A stretch of 64,000 nucleotides of DNA from Verrucomicrobiota bacterium. GTDB lineage: Bacteria; Verrucomicrobiota; Verrucomicrobiia; Limisphaerales; UBA9464. The notes under the pieces were generated by a model. It made no database searches. It saw only the letters and a program-made list of their open reading frames with translations, and had not been told where the DNA came from. Shown here in pieces: positions 23,954 to 58,500 of this stretch; positions within the stretch are counted from its first letter, which is position 1, and every line of letters starts with the position of its first letter. The stretch covers positions 78,882-142,881 of the forward strand of contig CANGKZ010000002.1 of assembly GCA_947454705.1 (NCBI GenBank). The letters run 5' to 3'. The position numbers and the translations under genes were made by a program.

Positions 23954-23955
23954 GA

Positions 23956-35514: not shown

Positions 35515-37224
35515 ATGACGCGTCCGCATCTTGCCGAGTCCCCCGGGGAAGACGTCGGCACGTTGATCGATGCGTTGATCCGCGAGCAGCAGCAGCTCAG
35601 CGCCGTGGAGGCCTTCTCCGCCCGGCACGATTCCGCGGGCCCCGCGCTTGAGGGGCAGTACCGACACCTCATCCCGCTTACCGCGCCGCGGCCCGGCGAA
35701 CAGTACGGATTCCAGGTGGATCTCGACCGCTGCTCCGGCTGCAAGGGATGCGTCACCGCCTGCCATTCGCTCAATGGATTGGAACCCGGCGAGAGCTGGC
35801 GCGAGGTGGGCCTGTTGGTGGGCGAAGCCATCCTGCCGCGACCCGCGGGAGCCGGTCCGGGCTCGGTTGCGTTGCCCGTGCAGCGGACGGTGACCACGGC
35901 CTGCCATCACTGCATCGAGCCCGCGTGCCTGCTCGGCTGCCCGGTGCTGGCCTACGACAAGGAGCCGGTCACCGGCATTGTGCGTCACCTAGACGACCAA
36001 TGCATCGGATGCAGCTACTGCATCATGACCTGTCCGTACGAGGTCCCCAAGTTCTCCAAAAAGCGCGGAATCGTTCGCAAATGTGATCTTTGCCACGGAC
36101 GCCTCTCCGAAGGCGAGGCGCCGGCGTGTGTGCAGGCGTGTCCGAATCAAGCCATCCAGGTGACGCTGGTTTCGCGGGAGTGGGTGCGATTGGAATTCCG
36201 TCCGCCCGGCGGAGCGAAAGACAACGCGACTGCCTGCGGAAGCACGTGGCTGCCGGACGCGCCGCAACCGGGCATCACGCTTCCCACCACGCGTTATCTC
36301 ACGCGGAATCCCGATGTCTCGCTGGTGGCGGCCGATCACTTTGAATCCAAGCCTCAGCCCGCGCACGTGCCGCTGATTCTGCTGCTGATCGGCACCCAGA
36401 CGGGAATGGGCGGCATGGCGGTTGCCGCGCTGATGCACTGGATCGGAGCCGCGGATCGAAGTGGACCAGGATTGGTTCAGCTGGGATTTGCCGCGATGAC
36501 GTTGTTTGGGGTCGGCATGCTGGGCAGTGTCGCCCACCTGGGCCGGCCGCAGAAGGCGTGGCGCGTGTGGATGGGATGGCGAACCAGTTGGTTGAGCCGC
36601 GAGGCGATGATTCTCCCCGTGTTTGGTGCCGTGGCTGGCGGTGTACTGACCGACTGGATGGCGCGGCTCTGGATTCCGGAGCATTGGATTTCCACGCCGG
36701 TCGCCGCGCCTGTCGTGGCCGCCGTGTGGATCGTCGCGCTGCTTTGCCTGATTGCCCAGACGCAGGTGTACGCCAGCACCGCCCGATGGAGCTGGCGCGT
36801 GGGATCCACGTTTCCGCGATTTGTTGGATCGAGTGTCATTCTTGGATCCGCGCTCGGCCTCGCTGTTCCGGCTGCTGCGGAACAGAGCGCGCCCCTGTTG
36901 CTGTCGCTCGTGATCGCGAGTGTGTGGAAGCTCGTTCTTGAAGTCCGAGCCGTGACCGGACGGGGCATCGATGCGCGATGGAAGGTGGAATCCGACCGTC
37001 AAATCCGGCTGCTCAGCGGACCGTTGCGAATCTTCTGGGGACTCCGCGTATCGATCAGCCTGCTGTCGGGAATCGCGCTGCCGTTGGGACTGCTGGTCGG
37101 ATCCGGGAAGGTGAGTCCGATGGTTGGTGCGAGTTTGTTTTTGGGGGCGCTCTCTGGAGAAGTGCTGGAACGATGGTTGTTTTTCCGCGCTGCGGCGCAG
37201 AACCGGATGCCGGGAATGCCATGA
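35515..37224 (+). CDS. fusion of a DmsB/PsrB-like four-cluster ferredoxin and an approximately 8-TM DmsC-like membrane anchor
   Basis: ORF 35290..37224 trimmed to ATG 35515 ([11 protein letters not shown]). The Cys motifs are [37 protein letters not shown] and CDLCHG...ACVQACP. The C-terminal half has about eight hydrophobic helices. There is no RR leader. Confidence 0.8.
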
Positions 37225-39473
37225 AGCACGATGCGTCAACCGAAGGACCGATTCCGGTACGCCCGCCCAACACGCTCCTGCGCGAGTGGACGGGGCCGAT
37301 GACGTCGGACCTCGTGCGGTCACCGGGCGCGTTCGGACTCGGCCAGGTCCCGTCGCGGCTCAAGCCGGATTCCGTCACCACCGCGGTGTGTGGGTTTTGC
37401 TCCACCGGATGCGGGCTCAAGCTGCACCTGCGCGAGGGTGAGGCGGTGAACGTCACGCCCGATCCGGCGTATCCGGTGAATTTGGGAATGGCGTGTCCCA
37501 AGGGCTGGGAAGTGCTCGCTCCGCTCGAGGCGACCGATCGCGTCACCACGCCGCTCCTGCGCAATCCGGCGAGCGGGAAGCTCGAACCGGTGTCATGGGA
37601 ACAGGCGATGACGGCGTTCGTCACGCGCATGCGCGGCGTGCAGGAGCGGCACGGAGCCCATTCCATCGCGTACCTGAGCACGGGGCAGATCTGCACCGAG
37701 GAAATGGCCTACCTTGGGGCGTTGTTCAAATTTGGGATGGGCGGATTGCACGGCGATTCCAACACCCGCCAGTGCATGGCCACCGCGCACGTGGCGTACA
37801 AGCAGAGTTTCGGATTTGATGCGCCGCCTTACACCTACGCGGATTTCGAGGAGTCGGACGTGCTGGTGTTCGTGGGCGCGAATCCGTGCATCGCGCATCC
37901 CATCCTGTGGCAGCGGGTGCTGAGGAATCCGCATCGGCCCGAGATCATCGTGCTGGACCCGCGCCGCACCGAGACCGCAGTCAACGCCACGCTGCATCTC
38001 CCGCTCGCGCCGAAGTCGGACCTCACCCTGCTGTACGGAATCGCGGCGGCGCTGATCGCCCGCGGTGCGGTGAACCAGGCGTTTGTCGAAGCCCACACCG
38101 AGGGCTACGAGGCGTTCGCCGCGTTCGTCGCGAACTTTACCCCGGAGCAGGCCTGTGCTGCAGCGGAGTTGGAGCGTACCGAGTTTGATCGATGCGTGGA
38201 TCTCATCGCCCGCGGCAAGCGCGTGAGCTTCTGGTGGACCATGGGAGTGAACCAGGGTCACGAGTCCACGCGCACTGCGCAGGCGTTGATCAACATCGCG
38301 TTGATGACCGGCAATATTGGTCGACCGGGCACGGGGGCGAATTCGATCACCGGTCAGTGCAACGCGATGGGCTCGCGGTTGTACGCCAATGCGACTTCGC
38401 TCCTGGGCGGACGTGACTTTGCCCAGCCTGCGCACCGCGCCCGTGTGGCGGCGGACCTCGGGATCGATCCCGCGCGTGTGCCCGACCAGAGTTCGTGGGC
38501 CTACGATCAAATCATCGATGGCATCGACCGGGGCGACATCAAGGGCCTGTGGGTGATCGCCACCAACTCCTCGCATTCGTGGATCGACGGCGGGAGGTTC
38601 GACCGGATTCTCGACAAGCTGGATTTCCTCGTGGTGCAGGACTTGTACGCCACCACGGACACGGCGCGTCGGGCGGACCTGATTCTCCCCGCCGCTGGAT
38701 GGGGGGAGAAGGAAGGCACGCTGATCAACAGCGAGCGGCGGATCGGCCGGGTGAAGAAGGTGCGTCGCGCGCCGGGCGTGGCGTTGAGTGATTTCGCGAT
38801 CTTCCGATTGGTCACTGCGGCGTGGGGATGCGGTTCGATGTTTGCGGAATGGAATTCCCCCGAGGCCGTGTTTCACGTGTTGAAGCGGCTCAGTGCGGGT
38901 CAGCCGTGCGACATGACCGGCATTCGCGACTACGCGCATTTGGATCAATCGGGCGGAATCCAATGGCCGTGGCCCGCCGCCGCGGGCGATGCCCTGGAAC
39001 AGGAGCCGGCCACGGAGCGGCGTTTGTTTTCCGATGGGCGCTTTCCCACGGCGTCGGGACGTGCGCGGTTCCTGTTCGATCCCCCGCGGGCCGTGGCCGA
39101 GCCCACCGATGCGGAGTATCCGTTTGTGCTGATGACCGGTCGCGGATCCTCGGCGCAGTGGCATACCAACACGCGCACGGGGAAGTCGGATATTTTGCGT
39201 CGGCTCTATCCGGCCGAGGCGTACGTGGAGATTCATCCCGCGGATGCTGCGCGGCTGGGGATCCGACCGCATGCGAAGGTGGTGGTGCGGACGCGTCGGG
39301 GCAGTTTGGAAGTGAATGCGTTTGTGACCCCGACCGTTCGGGAAGGGCAGGTGTTCCTGCCGATGCATTACGACGGCGTGAATCGCCTGACGGCACCGGC
39401 CTTTGATCCGCACTCACGTCAGCCGAGCTACAAGCACTGCGCTGCGGTGCTTGAGGCGAGGTTGAACGGTTGA
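37221..39473 (+). CDS. nasA: assimilatory-type molybdopterin nitrate reductase catalytic subunit (NasA/NarB-like), no Tat leader
   Basis: ATG 37221 overlaps the upstream stop (ATGA). It has the N-terminal [4Fe-4S] motif [13 protein letters not shown]...GMACPKG plus bis-MGD domain strings ([37 protein letters not shown]). The 5' part of track ORF 36978..39473 was discarded. Confidence 0.85.
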
Positions 39474-47064: not shown

Positions 47065-47346
47065 TCAGAATTTGTGGTCCGGGAATTTCTCGCGGATCAC
47101 GCGGCGGAGGTGCTCGACGAAATCGGGCGGGTGCAGATCGCGCGCGGCGCGGCGTTCCACGCATTCGAGCAGCTCAAGCCAGTCGTTCAGCGGGGGATTC
47201 TTCATCTCGGCCCACTGGATTTCTTTGCCCGCGCGCTTGGGGCGTTCGAAGAACTCCCAGGTTTTGCCGACCCGGTGCGCGAAGACGTGGCGCTTCACGC
47301 CATCCTCGCCGGGGGTCGTCCATCCGATTTCCGCTTTTGATCCCAT
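47065..47346 (-). CDS. small hypothetical protein (93 aa)
   Basis: The ORF sits snugly between ispF and the amidotransferase gene on the same strand, and its amino-acid composition is not GC-noise-like (K, E, W and F rich). No recognisable motif was found. Confidence 0.55.
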   Translation of the reverse strand: MGSKAEIGWTTPGEDGVKRHVFAHRVGKTWEFFERPKRAGKEIQWAEMKNPPLNDWLELLECVERRAARDLHPPDFVEHLRRVIREKFPDHKF

Positions 47347-47389
47347 GTTGATTGGTTGTTCCGAGTCGCTGCTCTTGGCTTGGCTTCGA

Positions 47390-47869
47390 TTACTCCGGCA
47401 GATCCACGCTGGCGACCGCCATGGCGGCGATGCCCTCCTCGCGTCCGAGGAAGCCCATGCGTTCGTTGGTGGTGGCCTTGATGCCGACCTTGTTCACCGG
47501 CAGGCCGAGGGCTGCGGCGACGCGTTCCTTCATCAGGCCGATGTGCGGAAAAATCTTGGGACGCTCCGCGATGAGCGTGGCGTCGATGTTCACGATGCGG
47601 CCGCCGCGGGCTTTCACCTGGCGCGCGGATTCCTCAAGAAACACGCGGCTGGGAGCGCCCTTCCAGCGCGGATCGGTGTTGGGGAAGAAGTGGCCGATGT
47701 CGACTTCGCCAATCGCCCCGAGCACGGCATCCGTGATGGCGTGCGCGAGGGCATCGGCATCCGAGTGCCCATCCAGCCCGCGTTCGTGCGGAATCTCGAC
47801 GCAGCCCAGGACGAGCTTGCGACCTTCCACCAGCGCATGGACATCGTATCCGATGCCGACGTGTATCAT
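47390..47869 (-). CDS. ispF: 2-C-methyl-D-erythritol 2,4-cyclodiphosphate synthase
   Basis: ORF 47390..47899 trimmed to ATG 47869 (MIHVGIGYDVHAL). It has GHSDADALAHAITDAVLGA, ATTNERMGF and FFPNTDPRWKGA. Confidence 0.9.
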   Translation of the reverse strand: MIHVGIGYDVHALVEGRKLVLGCVEIPHERGLDGHSDADALAHAITDAVLGAIGEVDIGHFFPNTDPRWKGAPSRVFLEESARQVKARGGRIVNIDATLIAERPKIFPHIGLMKERVAAALGLPVNKVGIKATTNERMGFLGREEGIAAMAVASVDLPE

Positions 47870-47950
47870 GGGAGCGAGCCTAGGCCGGGACGCGCGCAAA
47901 GTCCATGTCCCCGCCGATCGGATCGCGACTTGAAGCCGCGGCGGGCGGGG

Positions 47951-48868
47951 TCAGGTCCAGCGGAAGCGGTGCCGGCTGGTGTAGTAAATCAGGCCCAGAA
48001 CGCGTGCCTGGACCACGGCGAAGTAGAGGGAGAAGAACCCGTTCAACAGCGCCGACAGGATCCCCAGCCGTGCGTTGGCCACGAGGAGTTGCGCGAGGAG
48101 GTTGAGAACCAGAATCCCGGCAAACAGAAGCAGGGCGCCCGCGTAACGAAACGGGATGGCAGCGATCGACGGGATCACCACCCGCGGGTCCAGACCCACC
48201 AGGGAACTGGTCATGGCCACCGCCAGCAGGGCCATGGGGAGGTAGGCGGCCCCGCCGATGAGCAGCGCAATCGCCAGTCCGGCGCGGGTCGAATCCGGGC
48301 TCCAGGCATTGTAATAAAGAAGAATGGCCCCGGGTCCGAGGCAGACAAAAATGGTCCCCGCCAGATTCAAGCAGGGCCGGAGGAAATCCATCACCCAGGT
48401 GGCAGGGTTGAACGTGGGCCATGCCGGGATCTTGTCCTCCCCCATGGCGCTGGCCTGGACGATTTCCCGCAGCGTGATCAGCAGATAGCCGGAGCAGAAC
48501 AGTCCCACCAGGCCGGTGAACCGGACGAGCACCATGGAGCCCATTCCCAAAAGACTGAAGAACAGCGTGCCGGCAATGAGGATGATAATGCCATCGCCCC
48601 GGAACGGATAGGCCAGCGCACTGATCAGCAGGGGGTCCCGGTCGGTGGTTTCCCCGGAGAATTCGTGGACCGAATTTGGTACGCAGTCCGGGAACAGCTC
48701 CGACAGTGCCCGCCATTCGGGCCAGCCTTCGGTCCAGGCGTGCTGTTCGGGGAGGAAGCGTCCCGATTGCATCCCGGCGATCACTTCGCTCAACGGATAG
48801 GGACCGGTGGGTGCGCCATTCACCAGGATTTGATACACCGGTTCCGCTTCAGGGATGGTCGTGCTCAT
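47951..48868 (-). CDS. GYF_2 (DUF4339)-domain protein with a polytopic membrane C-terminal half
   Basis: ORF 47951..48937 trimmed to ATG 48868 (MSTTIPEAEPVYQILVNGAPTGPYPLSEVIAGMQSGRFLPEQHAWTEGWPEWRAL). About six hydrophobic helices follow. Confidence 0.7.
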   Translation of the reverse strand: MSTTIPEAEPVYQILVNGAPTGPYPLSEVIAGMQSGRFLPEQHAWTEGWPEWRALSELFPDCVPNSVHEFSGETTDRDPLLISALAYPFRGDGIIILIAGTLFFSLLGMGSMVLVRFTGLVGLFCSGYLLITLREIVQASAMGEDKIPAWPTFNPATWVMDFLRPCLNLAGTIFVCLGPGAILLYYNAWSPDSTRAGLAIALLIGGAAYLPMALLAVAMTSSLVGLDPRVVIPSIAAIPFRYAGALLLFAGILVLNLLAQLLVANARLGILSALLNGFFSLYFAVVQARVLGLIYYTSRHRFRWT

Positions 48869-49013
48869 GGGGCTCGGGCGACGGAGCCATCGCACGATGC
48901 ATGGGGTATTCCCGCAAGAACCAAACAGTGTTCCCAATTTTGGTCCAACGACAGATCCGGGTTGATGTCAGTTCTGACTGGGGGAGGATTGGTCCACGCG
49001 GCACGGCCGCGGT

Positions 49014-51314
49014 ATGAGCTCCGTATCCTCCAATTCCCGCGCCAACCCCGAATACGCCCCCTGGCGCTCGCGGCTCGACGCCTGGTTGTCAGCTCCCGTG
49101 AACGGGGCGTCGCTGGCGGTGTTTCGATTCTGCATCGGCGTGATCATGGTGCTTGAGGCCTGGACCTTGTGCGTGCCCTCGGCGAGCACGTTTAACGAGG
49201 TTCCGCTGACCACCTTTTACACCGGGGCGAACCTTCACTTTCGCATCCCGTATCCCTGGTTCGAATGGGTGCCGTTGCTTCCGCCGGTCTGGATCCATGT
49301 GGTGGTGGGGGCGCTGGCCGTCGGGGGCGTTTGCCTGGCCATCGGATTGTTCCACCGCGTGGCGGCGACGCTGGTGTTCCTTTCCTGGGGTTACCTGTAC
49401 GTCGTGGAATCCACGCGGACGTACTGGATGAGCTACTACTATCTGGAGCTGCTGGTGGCGTTCCTGTTGATCTGGATGCCGGCATCGCGGCGGTTCAGCG
49501 TCGATGCGTGGTTGTTCCGGAAGGGCGATTCCCCAACCACAGTTCCGCGTTGGACGCTCGTGCTGCTGCAGGCGCAGTTGGTGGTCACGTATTTCTACGC
49601 CGGTCTGGCCAAGGTGAATTACGACTGGCTGATGGATGGCGAACCGGTTCGTTTCTTCCTCTCGCAGGCGCGGATCGTGTCCGAACTCGGTCCGAAACTC
49701 AGCGCCTCCCAACTGCAGACCCTGCAGGGAATCCTCCACCACCAAGGGCTCGTTTATTTCATCAGCTGGGTCGGAGCGGGCTTTGATCTGGCGATCGGAT
49801 TCCTGCTGCTGGCGCGTCGGACGCGAATCTTCGGGATGATCCTGATCCTGATTTTCCACGGGACGAATCACTTCATTCTGTTCAAGGACATCCACTGGTT
49901 CCCATTCATTGGCATCACCAGTGCGACGATCTTTTTTGATCCCGACTGGCCGGAGCGCGCGTGGCGGTGGCTCCGTTCGCCGCGCGTGGCGAAGCCCGAC
50001 TGGCGATATTTCTTCGCAGGCGGCGTGTTGTTTCCGGGCGTGGGGGCGTCGCTCGGATGGAGCCTCGAACCCACACCTGTGGCTCCAGCCGCTTCTGCTT
50101 CACGCTCAGCGAGCCGATGGATGCTGCCGCTGGTTGCGGGATGGATTGCGTGGCAGTCGATCAATCCGCTGCGGCAATACCTTTCCGGTGCCGACAGCCG
50201 TCTCACTTGGGAGGGGCTGAGCTTTTGCTGGCGTCTGAAGGCCGAGGTGTACCGGTGCATCCCGAGCCAGTATTTCATCGGCGATTCGGGAATCATTTCC
50301 ACCAATGTCGACCGCGGCGTGGACATCCACTGGAACGCCTGGAAGGGCGAGCCGGTGCTGTATCGACGGATGAATCCCACGAAGGTGGACTGGACCGGAT
50401 TGCCGGAGCTGGTGGTGACCTTCGAGCCACAGATCGGCGAACGGATTCTCTTCAATCCCCTGTCCGGATCGATGGTTCCCCACACCGAGCAGGAATCGGT
50501 TCAACGCATTCGACAGCTCTGGCAGGAGCGCTACGGACGCGCGCCGCAATCGATTCGTCGCACCGCAGTCTTGGGCCAGATCACCGACGCCTATGCGGCA
50601 TCGCTTCGGGCCCACGGCGTGGCGGTGGCTTCGCGTGAGGAGGCATTGGAGCGCCTGCAACAAACCATGCGCGAGGGCCGCACTGCGGAGATCCAGCCGC
50701 TGCTGCGCCGGCTTCAACCCTTCGCCCTCGAAGGAGCCACCCCGGTGGCCACGCCCTTGTTCCTGATCGAAGACCCGCTGCTGCTCCCGTTGCAGGCGTC
50801 CACGAATTCTTCCTCCCGATTGCCCCGCGTGAACCGCGCGGCTTGGAAACCCGGAGCGGAAAACCACGGCGGTGGTAGTTCGGGAATTCAGCATTCAGGC
50901 GGGGAACCGATGCTGGTCCTGACCACCGAGACGTTGCTGGAGTCGGGCACGGAAATGCCCGCGGCCTTTTTTCAGGAATCGCAGGATCGACTCGGGGCAG
51001 CGCCGCAGATCCGGTGGAATCCGATGTCCGAACTCACCCAGGAGCTCCGCATGCACGTGAGCCTCCAGCCCTTTTTGTTGCGGCGATATGCGCGTCATGT
51101 GGCGGACCTTTGGGAGAAGGACCACGGGCGACGCCCGGCGGTGTTTGCGATGACCGGAGTGTCGTTGAACGGCCGTCCGGTGCAGCCGGTGGTGGATCCG
51201 AATGCCGATCTCGCGCGGGTCTCGGTGCGTTGGTGGGGGCACAATCCGTGGATCCGCGACCTGGAAACGCCGCGCGTGCCGAAGGGCGGGATTCCGCAGC
51301 TGACCGGGCCTTGA
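49014..51314 (+). CDS. HTTM-domain protein, full-length homologue of vitamin K-dependent gamma-glutamyl carboxylase
   Basis: [24 protein letters not shown] parallels the human GGCX string [38 protein letters not shown] parallels IVYFIAGVKKLDADWV. It has multiple TM helices and a roughly 400-aa C-terminal soluble region; 766 aa. Confidence 0.8.
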   Translation: [766 protein letters not shown]

Positions 51315-51450
51315 AATTGGGGGGCGAGCGTTGCTCGGGCTCGATCCGTTGGAAAACCGGGTTGAAGTCTCCCATTCCTTCCCGATACTCCACGCGACCT
51401 CAACGGGTTGGAATCTTCGGAGCGAATCCCTCGGAACGTCTACGTCTGTC

Positions 51451-52155
51451 ATGCTGGAATGGAACATTCAAAGTCGGGCCCATGCCTGCCACGCCACCGG
51501 TCGCGCCTTTGCCGATGGTGAACCCTGCCACACCGTGCTGGTGTCGGCGGGCCCGTTGTTTGAGCGGTTGGATCTGAGCGAGGAGGGCTGGAAGGCCCAG
51601 AGCGCCGAGATCCTCGCCCGGCCTGATCTCATTTCCCACTGGAAGGGCACCTACCACGCCCCTCCTGCCGCGCCTCCGGAGGCGATTGCCAAGGGCGATG
51701 CCGAGGCCCTGCTGCGCAAGCTGGTGGAGCGTCGCGACGAACGCCACGCCCCGGCCTGCTACATCCTCGCGGTGATGCTCGAACGCAAACGCATCCTCAA
51801 GGTGAAGCAGCAGCTCCGCGAAAACGGCAAGCGCGTGTTCGTGTACGAGCAGTCCCGCACCGGGGACATCTTCGCCATCGTCGATCCCGATCTTCATCTC
51901 GAACAGCTCGAGGCCGTGCAGCGCGATGTGGCCGATCTGCTGGAGAACGGGCTTCCCTCGACCGAGGCTCCCGCCGCCGCAGTTGCAGCGACCGCCACGG
52001 AACCTGCATCCGGATCCGAATCCGAATCTGAACCCGAGTCCGCATTGGCGGAAACGGAAACTGCGGCCGAGGCCGCGGAGGTCGCGGAACTCCCGGTGGT
52101 TGCCGAGGAATCGGCGGCTCCGGCCGGTGAGGTGTCGTCGGTGGCGCAGTCCTGA
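51451..52155 (+). CDS. hypothetical protein with a CxxT..CH N-terminus and a strongly acidic Glu/Ala/Ser tail
   Basis: ORF 51331..52155 trimmed to ATG 51451 (MLEWNIQSRAHACHATGRAFADGEPCHTV). The C-terminal tail is EPASGSESESEPESALAETETAAEAAEVAELPVVAEESAAPAGE. It ends 8 nt before rnc. Confidence 0.6.
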   Translation: MLEWNIQSRAHACHATGRAFADGEPCHTVLVSAGPLFERLDLSEEGWKAQSAEILARPDLISHWKGTYHAPPAAPPEAIAKGDAEALLRKLVERRDERHAPACYILAVMLERKRILKVKQQLRENGKRVFVYEQSRTGDIFAIVDPDLHLEQLEAVQRDVADLLENGLPSTEAPAAAVAATATEPASGSESESEPESALAETETAAEAAEVAELPVVAEESAAPAGEVSSVAQS

Positions 52156-52163
52156 TTCCGTCC

Positions 52164-52913
52164 ATGATTCCCACCGCCGAGCTCGAGACCGCACTGGGTC
52201 ACACCTTTCGTGACCGCCAGTTGCTCATCCTCGCGCTGACCCATCCGTCGCTCGCCCACGAGGCCGGTGTGGGACATCTTCAGCAGCACAATCAACGGCT
52301 CGAATTCCTGGGCGATGCGGTGCTGCAGCTGGTCCTGACCAACGAGCTTTACGCCCGATTTCCCGCGCACGGCGAGGGCCCGCTCACCCAGGCCCGTGCG
52401 CAGCTGGTCAATCGCGCCTCGCTCGCCGAGCAGGGGCGCCGCCTCAATCTTGGGCGCTTCCTGATTCTCAGTCGCGGCGAAGATTCCAGCGGCGGTCGCA
52501 CGCGCAATTCCACGCTGGCCGATGCCTTTGAAGCCGTGGTGGGTGCGGTGTTCCTCGATGCCGGATACGAGGTCGCCCGCGCCCTGGTGCTCAGCCAATT
52601 TCGCAATCTCTTTGGCGAACTCGGGGAACTTCCCAATCTGGAAAACCCCAAGGGCGAACTGCAGGAGCTGCTTCAGGCCAACTCGCCGAATCCGCCCGGA
52701 TACGAGCAAATCTCGGTCGAAGGCCCCGACCACGATCGCCGCTTCGAATGTGCGGTTTATCACGGTGGAGTGGAACTCGCGCGTGGCAACGGTCGAAGCA
52801 AGAAGCTCGCGGAAAGCGCCGCCGCACTCGTGGCGCTGCAAAAGATCAAGGCGGGTGAGATTCGCGTGAGCACCGGGGCCGGCACTGGAGCCAGTACTGC
52901 GGCGAGCGCGTAG
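52164..52913 (+). CDS. rnc: ribonuclease III
   Basis: It has the NQRLEFLGDAVL signature and ADAFEAVVGAVFLD, plus a C-terminal dsRBD (GPDHDRRFECAVY...GRSKKLAESAAA). Confidence 0.9.
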   Translation: MIPTAELETALGHTFRDRQLLILALTHPSLAHEAGVGHLQQHNQRLEFLGDAVLQLVLTNELYARFPAHGEGPLTQARAQLVNRASLAEQGRRLNLGRFLILSRGEDSSGGRTRNSTLADAFEAVVGAVFLDAGYEVARALVLSQFRNLFGELGELPNLENPKGELQELLQANSPNPPGYEQISVEGPDHDRRFECAVYHGGVELARGNGRSKKLAESAAALVALQKIKAGEIRVSTGAGTGASTAASA

Positions 52914-53801: not shown

Positions 53802-54709
53802 TTCCCCGCCGCCGGCTCGCGTTCCTGTTACGATTCCTCGTCGGTTGGTGTTTTGCCGCGCTTGTTGCGTCCAGAGTGGTTTCCATCCTGCAGGCCGGGA
53901 CCGGCGTGCAGTTTCGTACACCAGTGGGCGACATCGAGGTCGAGCTTTACGATGCGGAGAAACCCAGGACGGTGCAGAACTTCCTGCAGCATGTGGAATC
54001 CGGGTTGTATCGCGATTCCTTCATCCACTATCTGGTCCCCGGCTTTGTGGCAGCTGGTGGCGAGTACACCGAGATCAACCGGGGGAAATCTGGCGCGGAC
54101 TTTGCGCGCATCGCCCTCCTGCCTGGAATCACCAACGAGGTGAAGAGCGGCACGGTGATCTCGAATCTCTTCGGCACCCTGGCCATGGGCAACATTGCCG
54201 ACGGACCCGGACGTCCCATTTCCGGGGCGTGGTTCTTCAACCTCGGAACCAACAGTCCCACGCTTGAAACCATCAATGGCGGCTACCCGGTGTTTGGCCG
54301 CGTGGTCTCCGGGATTCCGGTGCTGCAGACTTTGAATGGTTTCGTCTCCAGCTCGGAGCGCGACACCAACGCGCTCGTGATCCTCTTTGATCCCAACCTG
54401 CCATTCGCGCAGGGACCGCGTCCGGTCGTGCCCCTGACCCTGGTGGATCACACCTCGATCGCGGGCCTGTACCGCAATGTGCTGTGGGTCGACGTCACGC
54501 TCTTGAAGGTGCACATCACCCCGACCAACGGAACCCAGCGCATCACGTGGAACGCGGTGCCCGGGCGCACCAACCGCGTCGAATACACCGAATCATTGCC
54601 CCCGGATTGGAAAACGCTGAGTGCGGCCCTTCCCGCGTCCACCAATGGACTGTCGATCGATTCGACGGGATTACGCCGGTTTTACCGCGTTCGCGTGGAG
54701 GCTCCGTGA
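53798..54709 (+). CDS. cyclophilin-type peptidyl-prolyl isomerase with a C-terminal FYR-type beta-sandwich domain
   Basis: ATG 53798 overlaps the upstream stop (ATGA). It has a signal/anchor sequence, then GDIEVELYDAEKPRTVQNFLQHV...FGTLAMGN...GYPVFGRVVSG. The C-terminal part has AVPGRTNRVEYTESLPPDWKTL...RRFYRVRVEAP. Confidence 0.8.
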   Translation: MIPRRRLAFLLRFLVGWCFAALVASRVVSILQAGTGVQFRTPVGDIEVELYDAEKPRTVQNFLQHVESGLYRDSFIHYLVPGFVAAGGEYTEINRGKSGADFARIALLPGITNEVKSGTVISNLFGTLAMGNIADGPGRPISGAWFFNLGTNSPTLETINGGYPVFGRVVSGIPVLQTLNGFVSSSERDTNALVILFDPNLPFAQGPRPVVPLTLVDHTSIAGLYRNVLWVDVTLLKVHITPTNGTQRITWNAVPGRTNRVEYTESLPPDWKTLSAALPASTNGLSIDSTGLRRFYRVRVEAP

Positions 54710-54711
54710 GG

Positions 54712-55575
54712 ATGATTTCGGTAGGCAATCCGCGCTGCGATTGTCGCCCGAAGACTGCCATCGGAGCGGGTCCGAAGGATCCGGTAATCAACGGAGCCAA
54801 CATCGCGGTGCCGCGGGCCCTCGCCGTGGCTCTGGGGTTGCGGTTGCCGGTCGCAAACGATGGGACGGTGACCTTCAACAAGGACACCCTTGCGTCCAAC
54901 CCGGCGGGATTCCTTTGAGTGATCCAGCACAAGCTCTACGAAGTGCTCGGCACCCCGAGCAGCCTCCCCAACGGAGGCGGCGCGGTCCCCGCCACGATCG
55001 CGCCTGCGGATCTTTTCCGGTATACCGCCGCCGGCGCGCGGAGCTTTGAGTCTAAAAACGGCAGTTAAAGAAGAGTCCAACCACAGATGGACACGGATGA
55101 ACACAGATGGAACTGCGCGGAGCGGAAGGATTCCTAGATCACCCAAAAGGCCAAATGGTTCGAGTCCAGTCGAGCAATCCATCCCCTTCTCTATCTGTGT
55201 GGATCTGTGTTCATCTGTGGTTTCAACTGCCACTTCTAAGTTGATCCCAATGTGGCCAACGACCCCACCAAGAAGGCCTACTTCCGCATCAGCCCGTTCG
55301 GTCCCGACATCCAGGAATGGAATAACCTTCCGAATGGGGACGACCATGGCGACCGGGCGACGGGGACCTTCCCCGCCGCTCCCCAGGACTACACCGGTAA
55401 TCCCGCGGTATTCACCAGCATGTCCAACAGCGCTGCGGAATTGGTCCTGTTGGATGCCATCGGATCTGGCCTGGCTCCCGTGCCCGAACCCGCCGGCGTG
55501 GCGATGGCGGTGGGTGTCTCGCTGATGGGCTTTGCCGGATGGCGCCGCGTGCGCAGCCGGTCGATTCAGGGCTGA
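54712..55575 (+). pseudogene. decayed PEP-CTERM protein gene (metalloprotease-like remnant) with an in-frame TGA and a MITE insertion
   Basis: The first segment reads ...VPRALAVALGLRLPVANDGTVTFNKD...GFL*VIQHKLYEVLGTPSS...PADLFRYTAAGARSF, with the TGA at 54916-54918. It is interrupted by the family-2 element at 55056-55234. It resumes VANDPTKKAYFRI...LLDAIGSGLAPVPEPAGVAMAVGVSLMGFAGWRRVRSR (PEP-CTERM tail). No signal peptide is left at the N-terminus. Confidence 0.55.
55056..55234. mobile_element. family-2 MITE (179 bp) with decamer-iteron terminal inverted repeats and a possible TCTAA target duplication
   Basis: The left end is aaaacggcagttaaagaagagtccaaCCACAGATGGACACGGATGAACACAGATGG. The right end is CTATCTGTGTGGATCTGTGTTCATCTGTGGtttcaactgccact. 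TCTAA occurs at 55051-55055 and at 55235-55239. Confidence 0.65.
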
Positions 55576-55698
55576 ACCCAAGTTTTTCAACACCCGCGGC
55601 CTGCCGGCTCGACCGGTGGCCGCGGGTTTTTTGTGCCCGGAGGGCGCAGTCGTTTCCGCACTTTCACTTCTTCCCGCCTTCCCCATAGGCTCTCCCCA

Positions 55699-56613
55699 AT
55701 GAAAACGCCGTACTGGCAGGGTGTCTTCCCCGCCATCACCACCCAGCTTCACAAGGATGGTTCGCTCGATCTCGACGCCACCGCAGCCCATGCCGATGCC
55801 CTGATCCAATCCGGAATCAAGGGCCTCGTGTTCCTCGGCTCGCTGGGTGAAAACCAGACGCTCACCGCCGACGAAAAACGCACCGTCATCCGCGAGATGG
55901 TGAAGACCGTCTTCGGCCGCGTGCCCGTGCTCAGCGGCGTGGCCGAGAGCAGCGTGTCGGAAGCGGTCCGCTACGTGCGCGACCTCGAAACCCTCGGGGC
56001 CGACGGCTACATGCTGATGCCGCCGATGATCTACAAGTCCCCGGATGCCCGGGAGTCGGTGTATCATTTCCGGACCGTTGCCAAGTCCTCGGGACTCCCG
56101 GTGATGATCTACAACAACCCGATCAGCTACGGACACGACATTACCCCCGAGCTGTTCGCGGAGCTCGCATCGGAGAAGAACTTCGTCGCCCTGAAGGAAA
56201 GCTCCGGCAACCCGCGTCGCATCACCGATCTGCACCGCGTGGTGGGCGACCGCTATGCGTTGTTCACCGGTGTCGATGACCTCGCGCTGGAAAGCGCGAT
56301 CCTTGGTATCGACGGTTGGGTGGCCGGCACGGGCATCGCATTCCCGAAGGAAAACCAGTATTTCTGGGAACTCACCCGCGCCGGCGAATGGGAAAAGGCC
56401 CGCGAGATCTACCGCTGGTTCACCCCGCTGCTGCACCTCGACGTGCACCCGAAGTTCGTCCAGTACATCAAGCTGGCCGTGCAGGAAACCGGTCTCGGCA
56501 AGGAATGGGTCCGCGCCCCGCGTCTCACCCTCACCGGTGCCGAGCGCAAGTCGGTGCTGAAGATCATTCACGACGGCATCGCCGCCCGCCCCAAGCTTCC
56601 CAAGCGGAAGTGA
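55699..56613 (+). CDS. dihydrodipicolinate synthase / N-acetylneuraminate lyase family (class I aldolase) protein
   Basis: ORF 55633..56613 trimmed to ATG 55699 (MKTPYWQGVFPAITT). It has GLVFLGSLGENQTL, MIYNNP and FVALKESSG (Schiff-base Lys). The exact substrate is not assignable from sequence alone. Confidence 0.8.
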   Translation: MKTPYWQGVFPAITTQLHKDGSLDLDATAAHADALIQSGIKGLVFLGSLGENQTLTADEKRTVIREMVKTVFGRVPVLSGVAESSVSEAVRYVRDLETLGADGYMLMPPMIYKSPDARESVYHFRTVAKSSGLPVMIYNNPISYGHDITPELFAELASEKNFVALKESSGNPRRITDLHRVVGDRYALFTGVDDLALESAILGIDGWVAGTGIAFPKENQYFWELTRAGEWEKAREIYRWFTPLLHLDVHPKFVQYIKLAVQETGLGKEWVRAPRLTLTGAERKSVLKIIHDGIAARPKLPKRK

Positions 56614-56636
56614 GGCGTTTTGTTGCCCTCCCTCTA

Positions 56637-56685
56637 AATGCAGCGGTTTGAACCGCAGATCGACGCAGATAAACGCAGATGCGGA
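56637..56685. repeat. family-2 element, solo end
   Basis: The sequence is aaatgcagcggtttgaaCCGCAGATCGACGCAGATAAACGCAGATGCGG, starting 24 nt after the DapA-family stop. Confidence 0.5.
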
Positions 56686-56732
56686 GGATGATTCGCGGGA
56701 AGATGCTGGATGCCGAAAAATATCGGCTCCGC

Positions 56733-56762
56733 TCTTCCTGCTTTCCTGCTTTCCAAATTCAT
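56733..56762. repeat. family-4 (TCCTGCTT iteron) element, solo end
   Basis: cttcctgctttcctgctttccaaattcatc is identical in core to the right end of the element at 59978-60105. Confidence 0.5.
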
Positions 56763-56871
56763 CCCACTCCGCGGCCCGCGCGGGGGCACTCGCAGGAATG
56801 TTGAAAAAGATTCCCGGTGAATCCGCCTTTGCCTCTTGGCTGAGGCGGATTTCCTGAACAGGCTTTGTCCC

Positions 56872-58323
56872 GTGAATCATCCCCGGGGATTGCGGACGCT
56901 GTTCTTCACCGAGATGTGGGAACGGTTCAGTTACTACGGCATGCGGGCCCTGCTCGTGTTGTTCATGACCGCCGAGATTCAGCGCGGCGGTCTGGGCCTG
57001 AACGACAAGGTGGCCACCGCGATTTACGGCCTCTACGTCGCCGGTGTGTACCTCTCGGCCCTGCCCGGCGGATGGATTGCGGATCGCCTCCTCGGCGCGC
57101 AACAGGCGCTCATCGCAGGTGGCGTGTTGATCGCCCTCGGCCACTTCTCGCTCGCCCTGCCTTCGATCAAGTTCTTCTACCTCGGCCTCGTCCTGGTGGT
57201 CCTCGGCACCGGGCTGCTCAAGCCGAATATCAGTGCGCTCGTCGGACAGCTCTATCCCGAAGGCGGCGCGCGGCGCGACGCGGGGTTCACGATCTTCTAC
57301 ATGGGGATCAATTTGGGTGCAGCCCTCGGACCCCTGGCCTGCGGCTCGCTCGGGGAGCGGGTGAACTGGCACTACGGCTTCGGCGCGGCGGGACTCGGGA
57401 TGGTGCTGGGATTGATCCAATTTCAGTTCACCCGCAAACACCTCGGTCCGATCGGTCTGGTCCCGGCGCACCGTGGGTCTGCCACGCAACAGGATTGGAA
57501 ATCGCTGTTCGTGGCCGTGGGGGCCATTGCGGTCGTTCTCGCCCTGACCTTCTCGGGCGTGCTGCCGGTCAATCCTCTCCAACTCGCGCGGTGGACCACG
57601 GTGCTGATCGTCGGAGTCGCGGTGTTGTATTTCCTCTGGGCCTTCTTCCTGGCCGGACTCGAACTCGCCGAGAAAAAGCGCATGGGCGTCATCGCCATTT
57701 TGTTCGTCGCCGCTGCGTTGTTCTGGAGCGGATACGAACAGGCGGGCTCCTCCCTCAACTTGTTTGCCGAGCGCTACACGCAGCGGACGTTCGGGGCCAT
57801 GGCCTCGCCGGTGCCGGCGAGCTGGTTCCAATCCCTGCCGGCGATCTTTGTCATCGTCTTTGCGCCGGTGGTTGCGGCGGTGTGGATCCGGATGGCCAAG
57901 CACGGACGCAATCCCTCGCTCGGAACCAAGATGGGTTGGGGACTGATGTTCCTCGCCATCGGATTTTTGGTGGTGGCGTTTGCCTCGAAGCGTGCCCTCG
58001 CAACGGGTCCGGTTTGGCCCAGCTGGCTGGTGTTCACTTATCTGCTGCACGTATTGGGTGAACTGCTGATCAGCCCGGTCGGACTCAGCTCCGTGACCAA
58101 GCTCGCCCCGCAACGGCTGGTGGGGCAGATGATGGGCATCTGGTTCCTCGGGGCCTCGTTGGGCAATTTGATTGCGGGTCTGTTCGCCGGCGAAGTCAGC
58201 GGCGACAACGCCGCGGCCATGCCTGCGCGATTCTTCCAGGTGGTGCTGTTCGCGGGCGGAGTGGGATTGATCCTCCTGCTCTGCAGCAAACGCATCCGCC
58301 GCCTCATGCCGGGAGTGGAGTAG
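56872..58323 (+). CDS. proton-dependent oligopeptide transporter (POT/PTR2 family)
   Basis: It has the FFTEMWERFSYYGMRALLVLFM signature plus GGWIADRLLG and 12 or more TM helices. The start is either GTG 56872 (VNHPRGLRTLFF) or TTG 56836. Confidence 0.85.
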   Translation: MNHPRGLRTLFFTEMWERFSYYGMRALLVLFMTAEIQRGGLGLNDKVATAIYGLYVAGVYLSALPGGWIADRLLGAQQALIAGGVLIALGHFSLALPSIKFFYLGLVLVVLGTGLLKPNISALVGQLYPEGGARRDAGFTIFYMGINLGAALGPLACGSLGERVNWHYGFGAAGLGMVLGLIQFQFTRKHLGPIGLVPAHRGSATQQDWKSLFVAVGAIAVVLALTFSGVLPVNPLQLARWTTVLIVGVAVLYFLWAFFLAGLELAEKKRMGVIAILFVAAALFWSGYEQAGSSLNLFAERYTQRTFGAMASPVPASWFQSLPAIFVIVFAPVVAAVWIRMAKHGRNPSLGTKMGWGLMFLAIGFLVVAFASKRALATGPVWPSWLVFTYLLHVLGELLISPVGLSSVTKLAPQRLVGQMMGIWFLGASLGNLIAGLFAGEVSGDNAAAMPARFFQVVLFAGGVGLILLLCSKRIRRLMPGVE

Positions 58324-58344
58324 GCGGCCGAGGCAGGAAGCAGA

Positions 58345-58500
58345 ACTGCGGTAACCACAGATGGACACAGATGAACACGGATAAAAAGGCGCGGAACGAA
58401 CGGATTTCGAGTTCATCCCGCAGTCGAAACACTGCTCTCTGTCTAGGGTCTACTCTTCCTACCTCCCATCTGTGTGAATCTGTGTCCATCTGTGGTAAAG
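58345..58500. mobile_element. family-2 MITE (about 155 bp)
   Basis: The left TIR is AACCACAGATGGACACAGATGAACACGGAT (58353-58382). The right TIR is CCATCTGTGTGAATCTGTGTCCATCTGTGGT (58466-58496). The outer limits are approximate. Confidence 0.6.

What the first reader, a model, noticed from the sequence alone, without database searches (positions are those of the whole stretch)
49014..52155. Full-length bacterial homologue of vitamin K-dependent gamma-glutamyl carboxylase, followed by a protein with a Glu-rich tail
Seen in sequence: the 766-aa product has nearly the length of human GGCX. It shares its N-terminal HTTM hallmark (ASLAVFRF...MVL) and the segment around the catalytic-base lysine ([13 protein letters not shown] versus YFIAGVKKLDADW, from my memory of the human sequence). 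It also has a large C-terminal soluble region. Established: HTTM/VKGC homologues exist in some bacteria (a Leptospira orthologue was shown to have epoxidase activity), but their physiological substrates are unknown. The next gene (51451-52155) encodes a protein ending in a long Glu/Ser/Ala acidic tail (SESESEPESALAETETAAEAAEVAELPVVAEESAAP). Speculation: this tail could be a substrate, although the protein shows no export signal, which argues against it.
Basis: partly seen in the sequence, partly recalled or inferred. Interest (0 to 1): 0.55.

Follow-up and report, generated by a model that had tools for sequence, protein, structure and literature searches.

The report
Bacterial GGCX-like enzyme, unrelated neighbour gene
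The 766-aa gene is a real bacterial relative of the human vitamin K-dependent carboxylase, keeping the quinol-activating core but with a remodelled Glu-holding site, while the neighbouring "Glu-tail" gene is a partner of the RNase III gene, not a substrate.

Summary
Window 49014-51314(+) encodes a 766-aa protein with Pfam HTTM (1e-52) and VKGC lumenal domain (2.8e-13). Its AlphaFold model matches only human GGCX in the PDB. The quinol-deprotonation and CO2-trap residues are invariant or nearly so in 120 family members: K218, W223, D263, F286, H287, N290, F299.

- The Glu-holding and coupling residues are not kept (N158→M, N159→S, H160→Y, K217→A, Y395 not Tyr). More distant bacterial HTTM proteins do keep N-H, so this is a clade-specific remodelling.
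- The matching length is coincidental. The family has a ~235-aa lumenal insertion and no sequence counterpart of human ~512-758.
- The downstream gene is not a partner. It is absent from 0/80 HTTM loci and replaced by other genes already at 71% identity. It sits directly upstream of rnc in 76/80 of its own loci. Its tail is disordered and unconserved, and it has no export signal.

The family is common (437 cluster representatives at E≤1e-30), already annotated, and already placed in a published 2025 phylogeny. It is a new member of a known, biochemically uncharacterised kind. The most likely function is a periplasm-facing, menaquinol/O2-driven enzyme acting on an unknown acceptor other than metazoan-style Glu.

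The parts
49014..51314 (+). Gene for a 766-aa GGCX-like (HTTM + VKGC lumenal domain) integral membrane protein
   Evidence: ORF; Pfam PF05090 1e-52 and PF22777 2.8e-13; human GGCX is the only PDB sequence and fold match; same gene call in a public assembly
49095..49949 (+). HTTM transmembrane domain (aa 28-312), containing the quinol pocket
   Evidence: Pfam envelope; aligned to human residues 45-319; model pLDDT mostly 80-97
49425..49442 (+). Acceptor-site motif W138-M-S-Y-Y-Y143, aligned to human W157-N158-N159-H160-S161-Y162; remodelled in this clade
   Evidence: family: N158→M69/Q49, N159→S 120/120, H160→Y75/H45; 29 more distant HTTM loci keep N-H, 51 loci of this clade do not
49611..49613 (+). 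Codon of K200, the equivalent of the human catalytic base K218 (preceded by A199 in place of the coupling residue K217)
   Evidence: K in 120/120 family members and A in 114/120
50121..50249 (+). Last TM helix and TMD-lumenal linker (aa 370-412), containing the invariant W406-R407-L408-K409 (human W399-D400-M401-M402)
   Evidence: hhalign and family HMM; invariance. The model has low confidence at aa 393-408
50289..51065 (+). Family-specific lumenal segment (query aa ~426-684, read across from family-HMM positions 426-684) where the human protein has only residues 418-442
   Evidence: Family HMM against human: domain 1 ends at HMM 425/human 417 and domain 2 starts at HMM 685/human 443; no Pfam hit in this stretch; the model shows beta strands and helices at pLDDT ~80-94
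51018..51266 (+). C-terminal part of the VKGC lumenal domain (aa 669-751), aligned to human ~443-511 and including W746 = human W501
   Evidence: Pfam PF22777 profile positions 68-150; phmmer domain 2; family HMM domain 2, E 3.9e-9; W746 invariant
51451..52155 (+). NOT part of the carboxylase system: a 234-aa cytoplasmic protein with a conserved ~168-aa domain of unknown function plus a disordered acidic tail; conserved upstream partner of rnc
   Evidence: No Pfam/NCBIfam/PDB match; >2500 homologues, mostly Verrucomicrobiota; rnc directly downstream in 76/80 loci and HTTM in 0/38; tail variable; model folded at aa 10-170, tail pLDDT <50
52164..52913 (+). rnc (ribonuclease III), starting 8 nt after the stop of the preceding gene
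   Evidence: TIGR02191 1e-66 and Pfam Ribonucleas_3_3/dsrm

Best explanation
Window 49014-51314 encodes a stand-alone inner-membrane enzyme of the HTTM/VKGC (GGCX-like) family, from a Verrucomicrobiota-type genome. Shown: it has the GGCX transmembrane fold and part of the lumenal domain. It keeps every residue that in human GGCX binds the naphthoquinol ring and deprotonates it (K218 base, W223, D263, F286, H287, N290, G259, A214) and the CO2-stacking F299. It has replaced the residues that hold the Glu gamma-carboxylate and couple Glu binding to epoxidation (N158, N159, H160, K217, Y395), and it has no sequence counterpart of human ~512-758 (clamp B and CTD). Inferred mechanism: the enzyme binds menaquinol in the outer leaflet of the cytoplasmic membrane. 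K200 deprotonates it, and reaction with O2 gives the strongly basic oxygenated quinone intermediate and finally the epoxide. That base abstracts a proton from an acceptor bound by the conserved periplasmic domain, and CO2 is probably added, since the CO2 trap is kept. The acceptor is unlikely to be a Glu held in the metazoan dipeptide-anchored way, and because K217 is absent epoxidation may be uncoupled, as reported for the Leptospira enzyme. The downstream acidic-tail protein is neither partner nor substrate. It belongs to a separate, conserved two-gene unit with rnc, and its adjacency here is incidental.
For: Family membership:
- Pfam HTTM 1e-52 and VKGC_lumenal_dom 2.8e-13.
- phmmer against PDB GGCX, 4.5e-25; hhalign 99.9% over human 45-418; family HMM against human, 9e-53 and 3.9e-9.
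- AF2 model pLDDT 81.9, pTM 0.76, with human GGCX as the only Foldseek PDB match (E 2e-15, probability 1.00).

Residue conservation in 120 family members:
- Kept: K218→K 120/120, W223→W 120/120, D263→D 120/120, F286→F 120/120, H287→H 120/120, N290→N 120/120, G259→G 120/120, F299→F 113/120.
- Replaced: N159→S 120/120, H160→Y75/H45, N158→M/Q, K217→A 114/120, Y395→L.
- The roles of these residues are taken from bioRxiv 10.1101/2025.02.09.637231 and PMC12647623.
- The change is clade-specific: 51 loci are S[YH]-type and 29 are NH-type.
- Many invariant polar residues in the lumenal half argue that this domain is functional.

Stand-alone gene: the best shared neighbour occurs in only 9/59 full-length loci.

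Downstream gene unrelated:
- Present in 0/80 HTTM loci, 49 of which have at least 1.5 kb of downstream room.
- Relatives at 71% and 59-60% identity have a GntR or PA14/PA-domain gene downstream instead.
- In the gene's own loci, rnc is adjacent in 76/80 and HTTM is present in 0/38.
- The tail is not conserved and is disordered. There is no export signal.
Against: No biochemical data exist for this clade. Ser and Tyr at the N159/H160 positions could still hydrogen-bond a carboxylate, so Glu or Asp carboxylation is not excluded. The linker around Y395 is modelled with low confidence (pLDDT <50 at aa 393-408) and its alignment is ambiguous by one residue. R436 could not be mapped reliably. Foldseek TM-scores are only 0.47/0.54 with rmsd ~9 A, so the correspondence of the lumenal domains is loose. 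The absence of a counterpart to clamp B and the CTD rests on sequence only. Periplasmic orientation is inferred from homology, not tested. Menaquinone synthesis and any epoxide-recycling enzyme could not be checked beyond this 64-kb window, which contains none. No terminator was found between the two genes, so co-transcription in this particular genome cannot be ruled out.
Confidence: 0.6

Rival explanations
1. It is a true gamma-glutamyl (or aspartyl) protein carboxylase that makes Gla-type residues on periplasmic or secreted proteins encoded elsewhere in the genome. The S140/Y141 pair replaces N159/H160 as the carboxylate holder.
For: The quinol-activation site and the CO2-stacking Phe are kept. 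The lumenal domain has many invariant polar residues, including W746 = human W501 of the propeptide-binding segment. PMC12647623 argues that the CO2-fixation residues are conserved in bacterial GGCX-like proteins and notes that MloH carboxylates an aspartyl residue. Ser and Tyr can hydrogen-bond a carboxylate (inference).
Against: N159A, H160A and Y395A each severely impair human carboxylation, and all three positions differ here. K217 and the C99-C450 disulfide are absent. Human 512-758, which forms half of the propeptide clamp, has no sequence counterpart. No conserved neighbouring substrate gene exists. From memory, not retrieved here: Gla has not been reported in bacteria, and the Leptospira enzyme lacked detectable carboxylase activity (Rishavy et al. 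2005, J Biol Chem).
Confidence: 0.2
2. It is an epoxidase-only or 'strong base generator' enzyme. It oxygenates menaquinol without carboxylating anything, either driving a different proton-abstraction reaction or simply consuming quinol and O2, as proposed for the Leptospira orthologue.
For: K217, described as the key residue for coupling epoxidation to Glu binding and not conserved in the Leptospira homologues, which lack substrate activation, is Ala in 114/120 family members. H160, also described as essential for coupling, is Tyr in the query. The Glu pocket is remodelled.
Against: The CO2-stacking F299 is retained in 113/120 members, which is hard to explain without carboxylation. The large, strongly conserved lumenal domain implies a specific macromolecular or ligand partner. 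Futile destruction of menaquinol would be costly without a recycling enzyme.
Confidence: 0.17
3. One reading: the Glu-rich tail of the product of 51451-52155 is the carboxylation substrate, and the two genes form an enzyme-substrate pair.
For: The genes are adjacent on the same strand with a 136-nt gap and no detected terminator. The tail has 14 Glu in 66 residues.
Against: The gene is absent from 0/80 HTTM loci, 49 of which have at least 1.5 kb of downstream room. Relatives at 71% and 59-60% identity carry different downstream genes. In its own loci rnc is adjacent in 76/80 and HTTM is present in 0/38. The gene family (>2500 hits) is found in loci that lack any HTTM gene. Tail length ranges from 15 to 74 aa and Glu count from 1 to 14, with medians of 35 and 5. 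There is no signal peptide or TM segment, whereas the GGCX active site is on the lumenal (periplasm-equivalent) side.
Confidence: 0.02
4. The protein is a catalytically dead membrane scaffold that merely retains the HTTM fold.
For: Several residues required for human carboxylase activity are replaced.
Against: The catalytic base and the whole quinol pocket are invariant across 120 sequences that share only 41-72% identity with the query. That pattern indicates purifying selection on catalysis.
Confidence: 0.01

Closest known systems
[quoted passage not shown]
   Same: Same HTTM transmembrane fold, and the only PDB match. Identical catalytic base and quinol pocket (K218, W223, D263, F286, H287, N290, G259, A214). 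CO2-stacking F299. W399 in the linker. Part of the lumenal domain, including W501.
   Different: N158/N159/H160→M/S/Y, K217→A, Y395 not Tyr, and no C99-C450 disulfide. A ~235-aa insertion sits where the human protein has residues 418-442, and there is no sequence counterpart of human ~512-758 (clamp B jelly roll, CTD). TM-score is only ~0.5. No propeptide-bearing substrates are known.
Leptospira VKD-carboxylase orthologue (Rishavy et al. 2005, J Biol Chem; recalled from memory, paper not held)
   Same: A bacterial GGCX homologue. K217 is not conserved and epoxidation is not substrate-activated. From memory: it is divergent in the Glu-interaction region and has epoxidase but no detectable carboxylase activity, a profile that fits the residue pattern seen here.
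   Different: From memory: the Leptospira gene is thought to be a recent horizontal acquisition from animals and is much closer to metazoan GGCX. The present protein belongs to a broad, old PVC-group family. I could not obtain the Leptospira sequence to compare residues directly.
MloH, the vitamin K-dependent carboxylase of malonomycin biosynthesis (Streptomyces; Law et al. 2018, cited in PMC12647623 and bioRxiv 10.64898/2026.08.19.745780)
   Same: A bacterial HTTM-family enzyme shown to carboxylate a non-Glu acceptor (an aspartyl residue of a PKS-NRPS intermediate). It is a precedent for new acceptors on the same quinol chemistry.
   Different: MloH lies in a biosynthetic gene cluster. The present gene has no biosynthetic neighbours and no conserved neighbours at all.
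NH-type full-length PVC homologues (e.g. Rhodopirellula baltica, locus L051, 762 aa) and short HTTM-only proteins of Bacteroidota/Myxococcota
   Same: The same family. R. baltica has a similar length and ~30% identity over residues 2-760, with AK-DW at the catalytic base and an SWRM(K/M) linker.
   Different: They keep the human-type N159-H160 (Y-[NL]-N-H-[YF]-Y), whereas the query clade reads W-[MQ]-S-[YH]-x-Y.

Membership tests
HTTM/VKGC (GGCX-like) protein family (Pfam PF05090 + PF22777) | HTTM domain scoring above the Pfam gathering threshold | tested here: met
   179.7 bits against a cut-off of 27.7, E 1e-52, aa 28-312 covering profile positions 3-259 of 259
HTTM/VKGC (GGCX-like) protein family (Pfam PF05090 + PF22777) | VKGC lumenal domain scoring above the gathering threshold | tested here: met
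   50.5 bits against 27.7, E 2.8e-13, but only profile positions 68-150 of 152 are matched (aa 669-751). The precomputed hits show both domains in all but one of the 120 listed homologues.
HTTM/VKGC (GGCX-like) protein family (Pfam PF05090 + PF22777) | GGCX-type three-dimensional fold | tested here: met
   The AF2 model (pLDDT 81.9) matches 16 human GGCX entries at E 2e-15 to 5e-7 with probability 1.00. The next hit has E 0.2. TM-score is 0.47/0.54, so the match is dominated by the membrane domain.
Functional gamma-glutamyl carboxylase (metazoan GGCX type) | Catalytic base Lys218 with its supporting residues W223 and D263 | tested here: met
   K200, W205 and D258, each 120/120 in the family
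Functional gamma-glutamyl carboxylase (metazoan GGCX type) | Naphthoquinone pocket (F286, M401, H287, N290, G259, A214) and CO2-stacking F299 | tested here: met
   F281, L408, H282, N285, G254 (all 120/120), A196 (103/120) and F296 (113/120). The H160 contribution to the pocket is replaced by Tyr.
Functional gamma-glutamyl carboxylase (metazoan GGCX type) | Glu gamma-carboxylate binding residues N159, H160 and Y395 (plus N158 and R436 for the backbone) | tested here: not met
   S140, Y141, L402 (or S403) and M139. R436 could not be aligned reliably. Mutating N159, H160 or Y395 to Ala impairs the human enzyme.
Functional gamma-glutamyl carboxylase (metazoan GGCX type) | Coupling residue K217 (substrate-activated epoxidation) | tested here: not met
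   A199; Ala in 114/120 family members. Role of K217 as described.
Functional gamma-glutamyl carboxylase (metazoan GGCX type) | Bipartite propeptide clamp and CTD (human ~405-730) | tested here: inconclusive
   Human 443-511 has a counterpart that includes W501. Human 512-758 has none by sequence, and a ~235-aa family-specific insertion is present.
Functional gamma-glutamyl carboxylase (metazoan GGCX type) | Gla formation in a substrate; vitamin K epoxidase activity | not testable with these tools
   Needs enzymology and mass spectrometry
MloH-type natural-product carboxylase | Location inside a PKS/NRPS or RiPP biosynthetic gene cluster | tested here: not met
   The neighbours are a GYF-domain membrane protein, ispF, a C26 peptidase, a methyltransferase, rnc, a hydrolase and a PPIase. 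No biosynthetic genes appear among the surveyed ORFs of the 64-kb window, and no neighbour is conserved across 59 loci.
Enzyme-substrate gene pair (carboxylase plus downstream acidic-tail protein) | Co-conservation of the two genes across genomes | tested here: not met
   Downstream gene present in 0/80 HTTM loci. HTTM present in 0/38 loci of the downstream gene. Adjacency already lost at 71% identity.
Enzyme-substrate gene pair (carboxylase plus downstream acidic-tail protein) | Conserved Glu-rich substrate region exposed on the same side of the membrane as the active site | tested here: not met
   Tail length 15-74 aa and 1-14 Glu across 109 homologues. No signal peptide or TM segment. Tail disordered.

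The most novel reading that the evidence does not exclude
The Verrucomicrobiota/Pirellulales S[YH]-type clade is a menaquinol/O2-dependent enzyme that has kept the vitamin-K 'base-amplification' chemistry and CO2 trap but evolved a new acceptor pocket and a new ~235-aa periplasmic module. On this reading it catalyses carboxylation (or another C-H deprotonation) of a non-Glu periplasmic substrate, a new reaction class for the GGCX superfamily in free-living bacteria.
Probability: 0.3. Interest if true: 0.65.

Novelty: new member of a known kind. Interest (0 to 1): 0.3.

Why it matters
What bacterial GGCX/HTTM homologues do is still an open question. Only MloH and the Leptospira enzyme have been studied. 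This analysis removes a tempting but false lead, the neighbouring acidic-tail protein.

It also shows that the gene is stand-alone, so substrates must be sought genome-wide or biochemically. And it identifies a clean natural contrast within the PVC bacteria: an NH-type that keeps the human-like acceptor residues (cultured carriers *Rhodopirellula baltica* and *Roseiconus nitratireducens*) against an S[YH]-type that has lost them. That contrast could guide the choice of enzymes for testing how acceptor specificity and epoxidation-carboxylation coupling are encoded.

The finding itself is not surprising to a specialist. Such proteins are abundant in metagenomes, already labelled 'vitamin K-dependent gamma-carboxylase' by annotation pipelines, and included in a published 2025 phylogeny.

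Tried and rejected
- **Operon partner.** De novo clustering of all ORFs within 6 kb of 59 full-length homologues gave no cluster in more than 9 loci (an FG-GAP/ASPIC-like secreted protein). The rest were small lineage-specific groups or spurious high-GC ORFs, so no partner is proposed.
- **MAFFT alignment of the lumenal half to human.** It misplaced residues such as W501 and C450 into gaps. I rejected it in favour of the HMMER and Pfam local alignments.
- **Promoter and terminator scan.** No sigma-70-like promoter and no terminator between the genes. This is uninformative for a PVC bacterium.
- **Structure search for the downstream protein.** No PDB hit at E ≤ 1e-3. The weak dsRBD-like matches (E ≥ 0.2, probability ≤ 0.2) are not used as evidence.
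- **Literature.** The Rishavy 2005 Leptospira paper is not held. A three-term search gave 0 papers, and 'HTTM domain' gave only 3 papers. Statements about Leptospira activity therefore rest and on my memory.
- **Comparison sequences.** The Leptospira and MloH sequences could not be obtained, so there was no direct residue comparison.
- **Quinone genes.** A search for VKOR/Men/Mqn genes was possible only within the window, which has none among the surveyed ORFs.
- **Unused search.** The third homologous-protein search was left unused. A human-GGCX query would have been swamped by metazoan sequences.


Full report
**1. The observation**

The ORF at 49014-51314(+) exists, starts with ATG and encodes 766 aa. 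An independent gene caller found the identical protein in a public assembly (Logan SRR9199085). It placed the next gene's start at the position equivalent to window 51451.

Pfam gives HTTM (PF05090, E 1e-52, aa 28-312, whole profile) and VKGC_lumenal_dom (PF22777, E 2.8e-13, aa 669-751, profile positions 68-150). NCBIfam has no model for it. Against all PDB sequences the only real matches are human GGCX chains (E 4.5e-25). `[16 protein letters not shown]` aligns with `[16 protein letters not shown]`, and `[13 protein letters not shown]` aligns with `YFIAGVKKLDADW`. I confirmed that the human sequence I used as reference is 100% identical to PDB 13ib_A.

**2. Family and organism**

More than 260 proteins match at E ≤ 1e-5 in the word-indexed search. 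The best 120 are 41-95% identical, nearly all 700-850 aa, and all but one carry both Pfam domains. Several are already named "vitamin K-dependent gamma-carboxylase" or "HTTM domain-containing protein" and come from Verrucomicrobiota or Planctomycetales MAGs.

An exhaustive HMMER search of 1.84 billion cluster representatives finds 2,860 relatives at E ≤ 1e-3 and 437 at E ≤ 1e-30. A genome scan returned 80 loci, mostly from Verrucomicrobiota (Limisphaerales and others) and Pirellulales. More distant relatives occur in *Rhodopirellula baltica*, *Roseiconus*, Bacteroidota, Myxococcota and Anaerolineales.

The window itself has PVC hallmarks (PSCyt2/PSD1/DUF1501) and ordinary housekeeping genes. 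A 2025 paper already presents a phylogeny of GGCX-like proteins from 131 eukaryotic and bacterial species, including a Planctomycetia bacterium, and cites the bacterial carboxylase MloH (PMC12647623).

**3. Structure**

The AlphaFold2 model (28-sequence alignment) has mean pLDDT 81.9 and pTM 0.76. Foldseek against the PDB returns 16 human GGCX entries (E 2e-15 to 5e-7, probability 1.00) and nothing else below E 0.2. TM-scores are only 0.47/0.54 with rmsd ~9 A. The membrane domain therefore matches well and the lumenal half only loosely.

**4. Catalytic residues**

Residue roles were taken from two cryo-EM papers (bioRxiv 10.1101/2025.02.09.637231; PMC12647623). I mapped them using hhalign (99.9% probability over human 45-418) and a 121-sequence alignment.

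| Role in human GGCX | Human residue → query | Family count (of 120) |
|---|---|---|
| Catalytic base | K218 → K200 | 120 |
| Supports the base | W223 → W205 | 120 |
| Supports the base | D263 → D258 | 120 |
| Quinone pocket | F286 → F281 | 120 |
| Quinone pocket | H287 → H282 | 120 |
| Quinone pocket | N290 → N285 | 120 |
| Quinone pocket | G259 → G254 | 120 |
| Quinone pocket | M401 → L408 | 120 |
| Linker | W399 → W406 | 120 |
| Quinone pocket | A214 → A196 | 103 |
| CO2 stacking | F299 → F296 | 113 |
| TMD | W157 → W138 | 117 |
| Glu backbone | N158 → M139 | M 69, Q 49 |
| Glu carboxylate | N159 → S140 | S 120 |
| Glu carboxylate, coupling | H160 → Y141 | Y 75, H 45 |
| Coupling | K217 → A199 | A 114 |
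| Glu carboxylate | Y395 → L402 (or S403 with a one-residue shift) | L 97 |
| Disulfide | C99 → F76 | F 107 |

In the human enzyme N159A, H160A and Y395A severely impair carboxylation. K217 and H160 are described as the residues that couple Glu binding to epoxidation, and K217 is not conserved in the Leptospira homologues, which lack substrate activation.

**5. The acceptor-site change is clade-specific**

In the 80 genome loci, 51 (the query's clade) read W-[MQ]-S-[YH]-x-Y. The other 29, more distant HTTM proteins, read Y-[NL]-N-H-[YF]-Y and so keep human N159 and H160. The 29 include the full-length *R. baltica* (762 aa, `…TNYNNHYYL…`, `…FSWRMML…`) and *Roseiconus* proteins.

Within the clade, Verrucomicrobiota read WMSYYY and Pirellulales read WQSH[FY]Y. 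The N-H pair is therefore the general state of the superfamily, and this clade has remodelled it. I could not explain why (notebook, 'unexplained').

**6. Architecture**

A family HMM aligns to human in two blocks: HMM 16-425 with human 45-417 (E 9e-53), and HMM 685-753 with human 443-511 (E 3.9e-9, including W746 = W501).

The family thus has about 260 residues where the human protein has 25, a ~235-aa insertion that is well folded in the model. It ends where human ~512-758 (clamp B jelly roll and CTD) would begin. The near-identical total length (766 against 758 aa) is a coincidence.

Many polar residues in the lumenal half are invariant: D394, R396, E400, R407, K409, D424, E465, R477, N481, D587, H681, N719 and H743. 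This argues for a specific ligand.

**7. The downstream gene**

The 234-aa product of 51451-52155 has no Pfam, NCBIfam or PDB sequence match but more than 2,500 homologues, named only "hypothetical protein", chiefly from Verrucomicrobiota/Pedosphaera. The alignment shows a strongly conserved ~168-aa domain (`WNIQSR…ILAVMLERKR…DPDL…LLEHGLP`) followed by a tail that does not align.

Across 109 homologues the tail is 15-74 aa (median 35) with 1-14 Glu (median 5). The query, at 66 aa and 14 Glu, is at the extreme. 53 tails instead carry an EEPFNxPS motif. The protein has no hydrophobic segment. The model is confident for aa ~10-170 and disordered for 172-219.

*Synteny:*
- None of 80 HTTM loci contains this gene or rnc. 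49 of the 59 full-length loci have at least 1.5 kb of downstream room.
- At 71% identity the downstream gene is a GntR regulator. At 59-60% identity it is a 1,130-1,141-aa protein with PA14/PA domains.
- In 80 loci found with the downstream protein, rnc follows directly on the same strand in 76. The other four contigs end too soon. It follows in 54 of the 56 loci with at least 1 kb of room.
- No HTTM gene is present in any of the 38 loci with at least 2.5 kb upstream.
- In the window, rnc starts 8 nt after this gene's stop, whereas the HTTM gene ends 136 nt before its start.

The gene is therefore a partner of rnc, and its position next to the HTTM gene is incidental.

**8. Context of the HTTM gene**

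No neighbour is conserved: the best cluster appears in 9/59 loci. Only one close relative (L043, 72% identity) shares the upstream genes, namely the GYF-domain membrane protein, ispF, a 93-aa ORF, the C26 peptidase and the methyltransferase. There is no biosynthetic cluster and no VKOR, Men or Mqn gene among the surveyed ORFs of the window. Some MAGs carry two paralogues.

**9. Interpretation**

*Shown:* the protein is a member of the GGCX-like family. Its quinol-activation centre and CO2 trap are intact. The acceptor and coupling residues are remodelled. The lumenal architecture differs from human. The gene is stand-alone, and its neighbour is unrelated.

*Inferred:*
- The cofactor is menaquinol. 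From memory, menaquinones are the respiratory quinones reported for described Verrucomicrobiota and Planctomycetota.
- The active site faces the periplasm, by homology with the ER-lumenal site.
- K200 starts oxygenation, producing a strong base that deprotonates an unknown acceptor held by the periplasmic domain, with CO2 then added.
- Coupling may be loose, as in Leptospira.

I put about 0.6 on this composite statement. By component that is about 0.9 for family membership with a working quinol site, about 0.95 for the neighbour being unrelated, and about 0.4 for a non-Glu carboxylation. The main rivals are genuine Glu/Asp protein carboxylation (0.2) and epoxidase-only or other base-driven chemistry (0.17).

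**10. Novelty and score**

The kind is known: a Pfam family, pipeline annotations and a published phylogeny, with biochemical precedents in MloH and Leptospira. This is a new member of that kind. The clade-specific loss of the N-N-H motif and the lumenal insertion are modest new details that I did not find described in the papers I could read.

Interest is 0.3. The gene touches a real open question, but the feature that made it look directly testable, a neighbouring candidate substrate, is refuted.

Noticed in passing
window 51451-52913 (+); loci L081-L160: A conserved two-gene unit. A ~168-aa domain of unknown function (WNIQSR…ILAVMLERKR…DPDL…LLEHGLP, with no Pfam, NCBIfam or PDB match) lies directly upstream of rnc in 76/80 metagenomic loci. 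It has >2500 homologues, chiefly Verrucomicrobiota. The AF2 model is confident (pLDDT >90) with two alpha/beta lobes. The only structural hints are non-significant dsRBD-like matches (E ≥ 0.2). It may be an uncharacterised RNase III partner.
   Followed up: partly
C-terminal tails of P0126-P0240 (homologues of window 51451-52155): About half of the homologues (53/109) end in a short conserved motif, EEPFN(A/P)PS-x-x-TLAP, after a disordered linker. It is reminiscent of an acidic-tip docking peptide. The window's own protein lacks it and has a longer Glu/Ala/Ser tail instead.
   Followed up: no
loci L046-L080 against L001-L045 (genome contigs): The GGCX-like family splits into an NH-type, which keeps human N159-H160 (Rhodopirellula baltica, Roseiconus, Bacteroidota, Myxococcota, Anaerolineales), and an S[YH]-type (Verrucomicrobiota WMSYYY, Pirellulales WQSH[FY]Y). 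The reason for the switch is unexplained.
   Followed up: partly
L016 + L023 (MAG bin245); L033 + L062 (MAG KT_bin-2079): Some Verrucomicrobiota MAGs carry two paralogues of the full-length GGCX-like gene, both of the WMSYYY type.
   Followed up: no
L162 7541-10939; P0004 contigs: In the 59-60% identical relatives, the gene directly downstream on the same strand encodes a 1,130-1,141-aa protein with PA14/PA domains. In 9/59 other loci an FG-GAP/ASPIC-like ~890-aa secreted protein is adjacent. Large secreted proteins recur next to the gene but are not conserved. Whether any is a substrate is unknown.
   Followed up: no
window 47951-48937 (-): Divergently transcribed from the HTTM gene across a 76-nt intergenic region is a 328-aa protein with an N-terminal GYF_2 domain followed by a multi-pass hydrophobic region. 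It is shared with the 72%-identical relative L043 but with no other locus.
   Followed up: partly
window 47065-47346 (-): A 93-aa ORF between ispF and the C26 peptidase gene has no Pfam match. It is conserved at 80% identity in L043 and is called as a gene in the public assembly (L161).
   Followed up: no
window 26449-39473 (+): An apparent nitrate/nitrite assimilation cluster on the + strand: NMT1_2 binding protein, a permease with two adjacent ATP-binding-type ORFs (not scanned against Pfam), an alginate-export-type porin, a flavodoxin/FAD reductase, a NIR_SIR reductase and a molybdopterin oxidoreductase. A LysR regulator lies upstream at 23027-24073(-).
   Followed up: no
window 8180-12464 (+): A PSCyt2/PSD1 (DUF1549/DUF1553) protein with an F5/8 type C domain is followed by a DUF1501 protein. 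This is the gene pair typical of Planctomycetes/Verrucomicrobia.
   Followed up: no
window 54682-58416 (-) and 47072-49156 (+): Very long ORFs (1244 and 694 aa) overlap well-supported genes on the opposite strand or in another frame. These are high-GC artefacts, not genes.
   Followed up: partly
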